Shown: piece by piece, positions 10,478 to 13,960 of the stretch
How the letters are laid out: every line of letters starts with the position of its first letter
Position numbering within the stretch: the stretch's first letter is position 1
NCBI GenBank assembly: GCA_951406725.2
Contig: OX597835.1
Location: 44,516,001-44,580,000 of the forward strand
DNA length: 64,000 nt
Direction of reading: 5' to 3'
Source of the DNA: Octopus vulgaris
Taxonomy: Eukaryota
Translations under genes and position numbers: made by a program
Notes under the pieces: model-generated
Seen by the model: only the letters and a program-made list of their open reading frames with translations
Databases searched by the model: none
What the model was told of the DNA's origin: nothing

Positions 10478-10484
<7 letters not shown>

Positions 10485-10910
10485 AAATGGAAAGATGAAT
10501 TATCTTGTTACGGATTATTCAAAAGTTTAACCGATACCTGGGTAGCAAAAATCACAGCAGAAAAAACACGGTTGGAGTTATGACCATAGGGTGTTGCAAC
10601 CGTGCGTTGGCGCGGATAATTGAAGTTTAATATAATTAGTGAATGGAAGAAATGGAGCTGAACGAAGATTCTACAGAATTCCTGAGTTTACCCCACTTCA
10701 TGGGCTCCTAGGGAGCGTTCTTGTTCGAGTTGCTTGCTGCGCCTTTGTTTTGTTTGGACATCGTAATTCCTGGATTTTCCTGAAGAGAAAGCTGCAATAT
10801 GGTATCCTTATTCAATCAGAATTTGGAAATTTGTGGCCTTTGAAACATGTGTAGAATGTAATAAAAGGAATTCTGTAGAATCTTCGTTCAGCTCCATTTC
10901 TTCCATTCAC

Positions 10911-10919
<9 letters not shown>
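10478..10919. mobile_element. Hammerhead-bearing inverted mini-element family Y, copy 1
   Basis: Perfect ~54-bp inverted repeat 10630-10683 / 10866-10919; TA-flanked; homologous to 13505-13960. Confidence 0.8.
10777..10856 (+). ncRNA. Type I hammerhead ribozyme
   Basis: TTC-CTGAAGA-GAAAGCTGCAA...TTGTGGCCTTT-GAAAC-ATGT-GTA-GAA. Confidence 0.75.
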
Positions 10920-10946
<27 letters not shown>

Positions 10947-10980
10947 AAAGTGCTAGGGTTAAATTTTATAATTGGAAATG

Positions 10981-11038
10981 CTACACTGAAGAAAGAAGTA
11001 AGTAATTTAAACACTTTAATCTCGAAACGCGTCTGTGG
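10981..11038 (+). ncRNA. Type I hammerhead ribozyme
   Basis: CTACA-CTGAAGA-AAGA..AAGT..ACTT..TCTC-GAAAC-GC-GTC-TGTGG; palindromic ACGCGT stem III. Confidence 0.78.
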
Positions 11039-11763
11039 TTAATCGCAGTCGTGTTGATTCATTGTTTTTCTCTTTCCCTACGTAAAAAAGTATGTTACTG
11101 TCGTGGAGATTCCTACAGCAGCTGAAAAGGAATTTCTAACTCCTATTTCTAAACTGGGTATGTGGTGAAACAATTCGCTGACACCTAATTATAATAATGT
11201 TTATAATTATAGAATATTCTTTTTACCTATAATGGCTATTTTAACGTACCGATCTACTTGGTAAAATTATTAATTAATTGATTGATTAATTAAATTAAAT
11301 TACTTGATTAATTTTACCCTTTTATTATTAATTTGAAAATTTATTTATATGTATATATAGATTCACAGTGTTAACAAAATAACACAGTGCGTGGCGTCAC
11401 ATTAAATATATTTAAATGGCACACGTAATGTATATATAAGCGTAAACAGACGGAACGCACAGAATACCGCCATATCCTCTCGAGTTAATCTTTACTGTTT
11501 AATCAAGAAGGTAGCTGGGTATGGCCTCCTCGAGTAGCTTCCCAACACAAATTGAAACAGTCCGTCAGGGAACTCACTTTCTCTCTCGCTCTCTGTCCTT
11601 GTCTGTCTCTCTCTCTCTGTTTGTCTTTCTCTCTCTCTGTTTGTCTCTCTCTCTCTCTCATTTGAATACCCGTACCAGAACCAATGTGCTTGAGCCCACA
11701 TGGTGGATCTAAAGTGTAAGTACAAGAGGTGGTCAGACTCTGCAGAAGGAGTAGAGAACCACC

Positions 11764-11933
11764 ATGTATGTATGTATGTATGTATGTATGTATGTATGTA
11801 TGTATGTATGTATGTATGTATGTATGTATGTATGTTTGTATGTATGTATGTATGTATGTATGTATGTATGTATGTATGTATGTATGTTTGTATGTATGTA
11901 TGTATCTGTCTGTCTGTCTGACTCTCTGTCTGC

Positions 11934-12016
<83 letters not shown>

Positions 12017-12126
12017 CCTATCTATCTGTCTGTCTGTCTGTCTATCGATCTATCTATCTATCTGTCTGTCTGTCTGTCTGTCTTTATGTCTCTCTGTCTA
12101 TCTATGTATCTATCTATTTATCTATT
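11764..12126. repeat. Compound (ATGT)n/(TCTA)n/(TCTG)n microsatellite
   Basis: Direct reading. Confidence 0.95.
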
Positions 12127-12128
12127 TG

Positions 12129-12850
12129 GATCAAACAGAGACCGAGGCTAGACGAATGGCACCGCGAGTGTCGCGTTGCTCTCAAGCAACTCTGCCGCCC
12201 GGGACCAAATTTGTGCGACTTCATCACAACAAAGGCGTTCTATAGAGGATTAGTGGAGGGGAGGTGCGACGACGTTCTCGGGCAGAATCTGGGCGTCGAC
12301 GAGAGACACCTCACCCGCCTATTCAGGACGACTTTCGGGCTGGGACCTATGGACAATCACCAAAGATCCCTGGCCTGGCAGTGCTATCGAGAAGCATTAC
12401 CTGTTCGGGATAAGCTCTACAGGCACGGTTCGAGACACACTGGACCGACTTGCCCGAGATGCGGTCAGAGCGACGAAACCGTTCTGCACGCACTCGTGCA
12501 GTGTCGAACCATTTCGGCTGCTGTCAGGTGTGGGACGAGTCTGGCTGTCGGCCGAGTCTATCGTGAAAATTGCACCGCCCCCTTCCCTCAACCAGGAAGG
12601 CAAGGCAGTTTTCATCGTACTGGTGGCTATGGTGAAAGAATGTGTGTGGTGGACTCGAGCGAAAGGATTAGAGACAAACACTTACCTCTCTGGCCAATCG
12701 CTCATCAACTTTTTCAAGTACCACTTGAAAAGGAAGGTGAGAATGGAAAGGCAGGTTTTGTCTCGTGAAAGTTTCAAAAATAGGTGGGTGAATGTAGCAA
12801 AGATGGTGCGTGCGAGTGACGAAACCACTTTGAGCATGATCCTGTAAATC

Positions 12851-12889
<39 letters not shown>

Positions 12890-13185
12890 AGAGAGATAGA
12901 GAAGAGAGAGCATTTTGCTTTCATGTATTTATCACCCCCTGCTTGAGGCTACCGTAGTCTTTTCTGTAAGATTTTCTTTCCATATATAAACCTAATCTTG
13001 CTTTTTACATTTTAAAAATTCTTCCGTGATACACGATCCCTTTCGATTGTCTTTTTTTCCCCGATCCATTTAGATCGGAATTTTACTTTTTTTCTCATTT
13101 TTTCCTTTTTTCTTTTTCATTTTCCAAACGAAAAGCGCTACATTTCTATTTGTCCCCCCTCTGTGTGGCTAATAAAGAAAAAAAT
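12129..13185 (+). mobile_element. 5'-truncated L1/Tx1-clade LINE (ORF2 C-terminus and 3' UTR)
   Basis: zf-RVT-like [34 protein letters not shown]; frameshift; stop at 12847; AATAAA and A-rich tail running into (TA)n. Confidence 0.85.
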
Positions 13186-13188
13186 ATG

Positions 13189-13264
<76 letters not shown>

Positions 13265-13271
13265 TATATAA

Positions 13272-13455
13272 AGTTAATCCAAACAAGAAAGCACAAAAAA
13301 ATACAACAACGCGACGACGTGGAACAAATAAAGTATTATTGGACGCTCAGGAAAGAAGGAAAGAAGGAGGGTTTAACGTTTCATGCGGAGCTCTTCGTCG
13401 GAAACATAGGAGAAGGGAAGACAGAGGAATAAAATCGCCAACGGTACACATGCGG
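13272..13455 (-). mobile_element. Family X copy 2, hammerhead motif at 13371-13405
   Basis: rc GTTT-CCGACGA-A-GAGCtccGCAT-GAAAC-GTT-AAAC; stem II mutated. Confidence 0.8.
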
Positions 13456-13457
13456 TC

Positions 13458-13504
<47 letters not shown>

Positions 13505-13509
<5 letters not shown>

Positions 13510-13960
13510 AATGTATGAAAGAATGGAGTTGAACGACGAATTAACAAAATTCCTTTATTTTCGACATATGTTTCGAAGGCTGCATATTCCTAATTGCGAA
13601 GGAATAAGGTGATAACTTTTTTCCCTATGGGCTCCGTGTGAGCAGTCATCTAAAAGTTTTTTGTGCATCTTGATGTTGACATAAGTTCCTTGCTTTTCCT
13701 GATGAGAAAGCGGCATAATATACTCCTTATTCCTTCGCAATTAGGAATATGCAGCCTTCGAAACATATGTCGAAAATAAAGGAATTTTGTTAATTCGTCG
13801 TTCAACTCCATTCTTTCATACATTTATATTTTAAAAAAACATACAAATTTCCACACGAAAGCACGTAACTTCAAACGTGTCTTCTCTGATGTGAATTTGC
13901 TACCCAGGTATCGGTTAACCGAATTATCCATAACAAGATAATTCATTCAACTACTCAAAT
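13505..13960. mobile_element. Hammerhead-bearing inverted mini-element family Y, copy 2
   Basis: Perfect 105-bp inverted repeat 13505-13609 / 13725-13829; tail is rc-homologous to 10490-10580. Confidence 0.85.
13694..13776 (+). ncRNA. Type I hammerhead ribozyme, canonical core
   Basis: TTTTC-CTGATGA-GAAAGCGGCAT...ATGCAGCCTTC-GAAAC-ATAT-GTC-GAAAA. Confidence 0.9.

What the first reader, a model, noticed from the sequence alone, without database searches (positions are those of the whole stretch)
10478..13960. Family Y: ~450-bp miniatures of the large PLE's inverted architecture
Two diverged relatives (10478-10919 and 13505-13960) each consist of a hammerhead unit plus a perfect inverted copy of its own 3' part (54 and 105 bp). 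Both ends face outward into (TA)n, and the two arms stop at different points. The arms are identical within a copy but differ between copies, so the inversion appears to arise anew at each insertion. The geometry matches 28665-37410, suggesting a common two-ended (twin-priming-like) integration mechanism.
Basis: partly seen in the sequence, partly recalled or inferred. Interest (0 to 1): 0.72.

Follow-up and report, generated by a model that had tools for sequence, protein, structure and literature searches.

The report
Tiny two-armed Penelope retroelement insertions
Two short, ribozyme-bearing mobile-element inserts in what looks like an octopus genome show, in about 450 bases, the back-to-back layout already known for Penelope-type retrotransposons, which makes them a compact test case for how that layout forms rather than a new kind of element.

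Summary
Y1 (10478-10919) and Y2 (13505-13959) are related (67-75% identical) non-coding inserts in (TA)n. Each has a type I hammerhead-like motif and exact inverted arms (54/54 and 105/105), joined head-to-head. They are not MITEs.

Three refinements:
(1) Y1's inverted arm carries 152 nt that its sense arm lacks; in Y2 the equivalent 130-nt tail is on the sense arm.
(2) The outer ends are fixed: both copies stop at the same proximal site (on a TATAT microhomology) and about the same distal site, and both sense arms start within 1 nt of each other. Only the inverted arm's truncation point varies.
(3) Y has no sequence similarity to the large Penelope-like element (PLE) at 28665-37410; only the geometry matches.

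That geometry (inverted 5'-truncated copy plus a one-sided tail) is the published standard anatomy of PLEs. The best mechanism is priming from both nicked target strands at two internal RNA sites, followed by blunt joining; this is inferred, with snap-back copying as the main rival. The parent family, copy number and ribozyme activity are untested, and n=2. New variant of a known kind; interest 0.4.

The parts
10401..10477 (.). (TA)n target, left of Y1
10478..10629 (-). Y1 tail (152 nt, from proximal site P to distal site D), present only on the inverted arm; homologous to Y2 13830-13959; holds a 9-bp hairpin, a 23-nt stretch identical in both copies and an AC-loop hairpin just before D
10630..10683 (-). 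Y1 inverted arm, part shared with the sense arm (54/54); its 5' truncation point is 12 nt downstream of the predicted cleavage site
10684..10919 (+). Y1 sense arm (236 nt): starts 16 nt upstream of the conserved ATGGGCTCC (17 if the junction T is shared) and ends at P on a TATAT microhomology
10780..10863 (+). Y1 type I hammerhead-like motif: CUGAAGA core, long stem II (10 of 11 pairs), GAAA, self-complementary stem III, GUA; predicted cleavage after 10853
10915..10943 (.). (TA)n target, right of Y1 (first 5 nt shared with the element)
13505..13609 (-). Y2 inverted arm (105/105): outer end at P; 5'-truncated inside stem II, so it spans the cleavage site uncut
13610..13959 (+). Y2 sense arm (350 nt): starts 17 nt upstream of ATGGGCTCC and runs through P to D
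13699..13781 (+). Y2 type I hammerhead-like motif: CUGAUGA core, stem II 10 of 12 pairs, palindromic stem III, GUC; predicted cleavage after 13771
13830..13959 (+). Y2 tail (130 nt), on the sense arm only
13960..13974 (.). (TA)n target right of Y2; the left target is the TA/TG/TA run at about 13458-13510
28665..32561 (-). Comparison element: inverted, 5'-truncated arm of the large PLE (3897 nt) with a 56-nt tail at 28665-28720
32562..37410 (+). Comparison element: sense arm of the large PLE (pLTR, 1309-aa RT/GIY-YIG ORF 32790-36719, 3' pLTR ending at its P site on an ATAT microhomology)

Best explanation
Y1 and Y2 are two independent, recent insertion products of Penelope-like (PLE) reverse transcription of a 350-390 nt non-coding, hammerhead-bearing RNA unit. 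That unit is either the pLTR of an autonomous PLE family not present in the window, or a non-autonomous derivative of one. Proposed steps: (1) a PLE protein nicks both strands in (TA)n (inferred from the targets and from PMC11167929). (2) Each freed 3' end primes reverse transcription on uncleaved RNA, one at a distal site D and one at a proximal site P, where the TA primer can pair with an internal UAUAU (end positions and microhomology shown; priming inferred). (3) One cDNA runs to the fixed 5' end of the RNA and the other stops early; which one finishes varies (the P-primed strand in Y1 and in the large PLE, the D-primed strand in Y2). (4) The two cDNA ends are joined bluntly, head to head (junctions shown; joining route inferred). 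The one-sided tail is the P-to-D interval. This works like L1 twin priming, except that both primers copy overlapping template, so the 3' part is duplicated.
For: Arms are exact within a copy (54/54, 105/105) but 40/53 and 78/102 identical between copies. The chance of no mismatch at 25% divergence is 2e-7 and 8e-14, and the 95% upper bound on arm divergence is 1.9%. In Y1 each arm holds sequence the other lacks. Short arms end at the same alignment position in both copies; long arms end 17 and 13 nt after the same conserved decamer; sense arms start 16 and 17 nt before the same nonamer. P lies on 5 nt of alternating TA in both copies, a tract found at only 0.5-0.6% of positions in these units; the large PLE's P has 4 nt (3.3% of positions). 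Inversion junctions show no palindrome: 0 nt of shared sequence in the large PLE, where both parents are visible; at most 1 nt in Y1 and 0 in Y2 if the 5' start is fixed. Both sense arms, and Y2's inverted arm, read through the cleavage site. PMC11167929 shows an anole PLE protein cutting and extending both target strands, starting at two internal RNA sites that delimit the tail, with uncleaved RNA as the main template and a predicted dimer. The window holds an intact-looking PLE ORF with the CX2-5CxxC linker that PMC8557442 links to (TA)n targeting.
Against: There are only two copies: no third in the window and no eukaryotic genome collection to search. No parent ORF is known for Y, and it has no similarity to the neighbouring PLE. 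A crossover between the arms would convert a Y2-type layout into a Y1-type one, so tail polarity alone does not prove two priming events. PMC11167929 reports initiation at a site not homologous to the cut DNA, whereas P here is homologous. In the large PLE the P site is not the longest TA tract in the pLTR. Inversion is not general for hammerhead inserts here: 0 of 5 other small ones (X1-3, Z, W; boundaries set by eye) have an inverted repeat over 11 nt. The hammerhead fold is not the minimum-energy fold (5.9 and 4.0 kcal/mol worse); the sense arms fold no better than shuffles (z +1.71 and -1.40); the tails fold more stably on the antisense strand; and only 2 of 29 and 1 of 26 consensus pairs show two-sided changes. 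The 14 nt after the shared 5' TGA do not align between the copies.
Confidence: 0.55

Rival explanations
1. Single priming with snap-back: one cDNA is made from D to the 5' end, its 3' end jumps back onto itself (or an antisense RNA self-primes) and copies the 3' part. Endonuclease resolution of the hairpin or cruciform, or a later crossover between the arms, then leaves the tail on one arm or the other.
For: It explains exact arm identity at once and Y2's nested layout directly. PMC3846280 (Discussion) proposes self-priming for PLE inversions, and PMC8557442 ascribes the tail to endonuclease resolution. One crossover between the arms turns the Y2 layout into the Y1 layout (inference).
Against: No palindrome or microhomology at 3 of 3 junctions (0, at most 1, 0 nt), unlike the rotifer cases. 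Y1 and the large PLE need an extra step. The two-start-site, two-strand biochemistry of PMC11167929 explains the tail without resolution.
Confidence: 0.27
2. Y is a deletion derivative (miniature) of the large PLE at 28665-37410 and is mobilised by that protein through shared cis sequences.
For: Same geometry and same (TA)n target; sense arms start 96, 89 and 93 nt upstream of the hammerhead core in Y1, Y2 and the large PLE.
Against: No blastn hit at word size 7, E 0.01. Alignment scores against the pLTR and 3' UTR are within shuffles (19 to 268 of 300 shuffles score as well). The ribozyme differs (6-bp stem II and CUGAUGC core versus a long branched stem II), and the tail is 56 nt versus 130-152 nt. 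PMC3846280 describes pLTRs as element-specific. Mobilisation in trans without homology remains possible.
Confidence: 0.04
3. One ancestral inverted-repeat element whose arms are kept identical by gene conversion after insertion.
For: Hairpin-forming arms can homogenise (own knowledge), and the copies share all three boundaries.
Against: Arm lengths (54 versus 105 shared nt), inversion points and tail side differ, so the copies cannot descend from one fixed structure without further rearrangement.
Confidence: 0.06
4. MITE or foldback DNA transposon inserted at TA.
For: Short, non-coding, inverted repeats, TA flanks; the window holds mariner-like ends beside TA runs (family label recalled).
Against: The repeats are not terminal (152 and 130 nt lie outside them on one side) and differ in length between copies; there is a hammerhead-like motif inside.
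Confidence: 0.03
5. Assembly or library artefact (chimeric palindromic reads).
For: Exact inverted arms next to microsatellites; PMC8557442 notes assembly trouble at such PLE structures.
Against: Two diverged copies place their ends at homologous positions, the arms are staggered, and unique flanks are not mirrored. Raw reads could not be examined.
Confidence: 0.02

Closest known systems
Canonical EN+ Penelope-like elements (Penelope/Poseidon, Neptune, Nematis): pLTR with inverted 5'-truncated copy and tail (PMC3846280, PMC8557442)
   Same: Head-to-head inverted 5'-truncated arm next to the 5' end, a tail on one end only (either end), type I hammerhead with palindromic stem III, microsatellite target without a discernible TSD.
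   Different: No ORF, about 450 nt in all; tail 130-152 nt against the published 30-40; unusually long stem II; blunt junctions without the palindromes seen in Adineta.
Truncated or solo PLE hammerhead units, including opposite-strand pairs 100-700 bp apart in Schistosoma mansoni (PMC4209133, section 5); solo pLTRs in Adineta vaga (PMC3846280)
   Same: Short, dispersed, hammerhead-bearing PLE remnants, some of them inverted.
   Different: Here only one complete ribozyme per insert, with fixed 5', P and D boundaries; the passages read give no such anatomy.
Non-LTR retrozymes (PMC7229834; bioRxiv 10.64898/2026.07.22.740005)
   Same: Non-coding 350-390 nt unit, low GC, type I hammerhead, presumed PLE-dependent.
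   Different: No head-to-tail tandem, which is their defining arrangement; the word 'inverted' occurs 0 times in the main text of the first paper and once in the second.
Anolis Poseidon (PAc) in vitro mechanism (PMC11167929)
   Same: Two start sites delimiting a tail, AT-rich target, uncleaved template, an AC-rich stem-loop near a start site (Y has one 13-17 nt before D).
   Different: PAc's sites are 30-40 nt apart, lie inside the ORF and are not homologous to the target; Y's are non-coding, far apart, and P is homologous to the target.
L1 twin priming (recalled, not read)
   Same: A second target strand primes internally by microhomology; both 3' ends face outward.
   Different: L1 inversions duplicate little or nothing; here 54, 105 and about 3840 nt are duplicated, and there is no poly(A).

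Membership tests
PLE-derived insert (pLTR-type) | Type I hammerhead motif in the unit | tested here: met
   Core, stems I-III found in both copies; 0 and 3 of 2000 shuffles. Not detected by Rfam; descriptor set after seeing the motif.
PLE-derived insert (pLTR-type) | Inverted 5'-truncated copy adjacent to the 5' end | tested here: met
PLE-derived insert (pLTR-type) | Tail extension at one end only | tested here: met
   152 and 130 nt; longer than the 30-40 bp in PMC8557442
PLE-derived insert (pLTR-type) | AT-rich or (TA)n target | tested here: met
   4 of 4 ends abut TA runs
PLE-derived insert (pLTR-type) | Sequence match to the pLTR of an autonomous PLE | tested here: inconclusive
   No match to the one PLE in the window; other families of the genome could not be searched
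PLE-derived insert (pLTR-type) | ORF start inside the pLTR/tail, as in Pen2a_Av, PAc and the large PLE here | tested here: not met
   11 of 11 sense-strand ATGs in the arms hit a stop within 25 codons; a start beyond D is not excluded
Autonomous PLE | RT plus GIY-YIG ORF | tested here: not met
   No ORF in Y; present in 32790-36719
Non-LTR retrozyme | Head-to-tail tandem of hammerhead units | tested here: not met
   Single unit per insert, no tandem repeat at either copy; tandems elsewhere in the genome unchecked
Non-LTR retrozyme | Self-cleavage and circular RNA | not testable with these tools
   Needs transcripts and in vitro cleavage
MITE | Terminal inverted repeats fixed across copies | tested here: not met
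   Repeats are not terminal and differ in extent
MITE | Fixed target-site duplication | tested here: inconclusive
   A TA duplication cannot be read inside (TA)n
Derivative of the 28665-37410 PLE | Shared terminal sequence | tested here: not met

The most novel reading that the evidence does not exclude
Y is a true non-autonomous RNA family (no parent ORF) with a fixed transcript start and two reverse-transcription start sites 130-150 nt apart. A PLE dimer copies it twice in each insertion, once from each nicked target strand, so that most genomic copies are asymmetric palindromes. It would be a SINE-like partner of PLEs that spreads as inverted two-armed inserts instead of tandems, and thousands of such copies would record which primer finished, giving a genome-scale readout of how PLE inversions and tails form.
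Probability: 0.25. Interest if true: 0.62.

Novelty: new variant of a known kind. Interest (0 to 1): 0.4.

Why it matters
PMC8557442 names the formation of tandem/inverted repeats and microsatellite bias as the open question of PLE transposition. PMC11167929 supplies two-strand extension and two start sites, but leaves the later steps unvalidated. These inserts compress all the boundaries (5' start, P, D, inversion junction) into 450 nt and show both tail polarities in one family. That makes them a small template for an in vitro test and an easy unit to tabulate across a genome. They also warn annotators that such inserts would pass as MITEs or miRNA hairpins (Y2 scores 122.6 bits on MIR821, below its 249-bit cut-off). 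The architecture itself is not new.

Tried and rejected
The repeat finder on the whole window was swamped by microsatellites; a repeat-masked self-BLAST replaced it. Rfam gave no hammerhead at either copy nor among the 150 of 246 window matches listed; MIR821 is a hairpin artefact. More copies: none in the window by pattern, covariance-model or nhmmer search; the 23-nt conserved stretch had 0 exact matches in prokaryotic genome contigs, as expected. Coding potential: none. Homology to the large PLE or to the X1, Z and W hammerhead inserts: none above shuffles (one of three X copies tested). Pfam at E 0.001 found nothing for the full PLE ORF; at E 1, RVT_1 and GIY-YIG appear below their curated cut-offs. 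PDB search: 1 non-significant hit. A splice-acceptor reading of the conserved pyrimidine tract/CAG-G in the tail was considered, but I saw no conserved donor by eye and did not test it. Strand-specific structure of the tail was not supported by folding energies. Early scripts used outer ends 1 nt (Y1) and 9 nt (Y2) too short; one search gives the corrected lengths.

Full report
Setting. The window is microsatellite-rich animal DNA. Residues 560-1309 of the large ORF match, at 99% identity over 89% of that region, a protein named as Octopus vulgaris (P0001), so the host is probably that species or a close relative (inference).

Observation. Y1 spans 10478-10919 and Y2 13505-13959, both between TA runs. 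The exact inverted repeats are 54 and 105 nt; shuffles give at most 20-22 nt (1000 each). The copies share 149 of 222 positions over the 5' part and 135 of 180 over the 3' part. No third copy is in the window.

Anatomy. Call the unit A-B-T: A is the 5' part, B the duplicated part ending at a proximal site P, and T the tail ending at a distal site D. Y2 is inverted B (105 nt) followed by A-B-T (350 nt, T = 130). Y1 is inverted B-T (206 nt, T = 152) followed by A-B (236 nt). The large PLE has the Y1 layout: a 3897-nt inverted arm with a 56-nt tail, then a 4849-nt sense arm; its arms are 99.7% identical over 3844 columns, with 2 substitutions and 4 gaps. Three boundaries coincide between Y1 and Y2. 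P falls at the same alignment position; D lies 17 and 13 nt after the same decamer; and the sense-arm start lies 16 and 17 nt before the same nonamer (both would begin TGA if Y1's junction T is shared). Only the inverted arm's truncation point differs. The 14 nt after that TGA do not align, and n is 2, so the fixed 5' start is suggestive only.

Ribozyme. Both sense arms hold CUGANGA, a long stem II (10 of 11 and 10 of 12 pairs), GAAA, a self-complementary stem III (duplex -6.0 and -7.0 kcal/mol) and GUA or GUC followed by stem I. A small palindromic helix III suited to dimer folding is described for PLE hammerheads (PMC4209133, passages). Results against: Rfam misses the motif; my first scan missed it; the second descriptor was set after seeing it (0 and 3 of 2000 shuffles pass); the ribozyme fold is 4-6 kcal/mol above the minimum; and covariation from two sequences is slight. 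Activity is untested. No ATG-started frame stays open (11 of 11 stop within 25 codons).

Per-insertion origin of the inversion. The arms are 159 of 159 identical within copies (upper bound 1.9% divergence), while the same stretches are 40/53 and 78/102 identical between copies. So each inversion is much younger than the split between the two source lineages, and the 25% divergence predates insertion (inference; gene conversion is the minor alternative).

Ends and junctions. P sits on 5 nt of alternating TA in both copies (0.5-0.6% of positions qualify; the two copies are not independent) and on 4 nt in the large PLE (3.3%). The large PLE's D has only 2 nt (18%), and Y's D cannot be tested without a parent. 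Inversion junctions have 0 nt of shared sequence in the large PLE, and at most 1 and 0 nt in Y1 and Y2 if the start is fixed.

Relation to the large PLE. There is no sequence similarity: scores of 22-35 against its pLTR and 3' UTR are matched by 19 to 268 of 300 shuffles. Its ribozyme has a 6-bp stem II and a CUGAUGC core. 'Miniature' is true of shape only. Of seven small hammerhead inserts I delimited in the window, only the two Y copies are inverted.

Mechanism. PMC11167929 (parts 1-2 of 4 read) shows a PLE protein cutting and extending both target strands, starting at two internal RNA sites that bound the tail, on uncleaved RNA. Applied here, one strand primes at D and the other at P; one cDNA reaches the 5' end, the other stops, and the ends are joined bluntly. 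Internal initiation near the 5' end of a full transcript would also yield a solo pLTR with a fixed 5' boundary, so Y need not be a separate non-autonomous family (I put solo pLTR versus non-autonomous at about even). Y1 cannot be made by simply copying one arm from the other. However, a crossover between arms or resolution of a snap-back hairpin can convert the Y2 layout into the Y1 layout, so the self-priming model of PMC3846280 (Discussion read) stays alive; the lack of junction palindromes weighs against it. Shown: boundaries, identities, microhomology, motif. Inferred: nicking, priming, joining, the identity of the protein.

Prior art. [quoted passage not shown] PMC3846280 (abstract, passages, Discussion) shows inverted pLTRs, tails and solo pLTRs. 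PMC4209133 (section 5) notes hammerhead pairs 100-700 bp apart on opposite strands as probable truncated PLEs. PMC7229834 (passages) and bioRxiv 10.64898/2026.07.22.740005 (part 1 of 5 and passages) define retrozymes as tandem units derived from PLEs. PMC13282606 (passages and one supplement) counts 190 Penelope-like families covering 6.83% of O. vulgaris, without mention of hammerheads. Nine searches listed no paper that, from its title and abstract start, describes ORF-less two-armed inserts of this kind or links PLE inversions to twin priming; the library lacks most subscription papers, and unseen repeat libraries may hold the family. L1 twin priming is recalled, not read.

Verdict. A real, PLE-type feature. 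The architecture is known; the miniature form with a long tail, both polarities and fixed boundaries is a modest new variant that is useful as a test substrate. Novelty: new variant of a known kind. Interest 0.4.

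Noticed in passing
window 32790-36719 (+); P0001-P0031: The large PLE protein has a C-terminal GIY-YIG and a CX2-5CxxC linker (Neptune/Nematis-like), yet 130 aa between RT motifs A and B'; 28 of 31 homologues show 126-133 aa (3 not measurable). PMC8557442 says C-terminal-endonuclease PLEs lack the insertion in fingers. No reference PLEs were aligned, so whether this is unusual is unverified.
   Followed up: partly
window about 33480-34230 (ORF residues 231-480): Asparagine-rich stretch (32% N) in the PLE ORF upstream of the RT, recalling the N-rich inserts in Adineta Penelope ORFs (PMC3846280).
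   Followed up: no
P0028: A predicted Octopus vulgaris leucine-rich-repeat protein isoform carries a 98% identical piece of this PLE ORF (20% of the query): exonisation or a gene-model artefact.
   Followed up: no
window 2509-2669 (+), 13271-13457 (-), 20062-about 20260 (-): Family X: three 91-94% identical inserts with a CCGACGA-core hammerhead variant, a fixed 3' end into (TA)n, differing 5' ends and no inversion. One lies about 50 nt from Y2 in the same microsatellite.
   Followed up: partly
window 9038-9389 (+) and 10944-about 11200 (+): Two more single hammerhead-like inserts at TA runs (Z found by the scan; W seen by eye only and degenerate), unrelated to Y.
   Followed up: partly
window 50028-50562, 8361-8497, 9755-9878, 9575-9662/10007-10107: Older imperfect palindromes (70-82% arm identity); the first has almost no spacer, more like a foldback or MITE.
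   Followed up: no
window 28269-28326 and 37550-37581; 24989-25041: Inverted 32-nt ends lie just outside the TA runs on both sides of the large PLE, with a third copy at about 25.0 kb; they resemble DNA-transposon termini (label recalled).
   Followed up: no
window 317-474, 21309-21498, 47288-47480: A dispersed family with mariner-like ends at TA (label recalled).
   Followed up: no
window 17288-19039, 21785-21960, 38670-38919, 42161-42386, 46060-46493, 59008-59146: An abundant SINE-like family, in places in tandem (184-nt period at 46122-46490).
   Followed up: no
window 12130-12847 (+); 39536-39922 and 56166-56567 (+): 3' fragments of LINE-like ORFs between Y1 and Y2 and elsewhere; no Pfam hit at E 0.001 for 12254-12844.
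   Followed up: no
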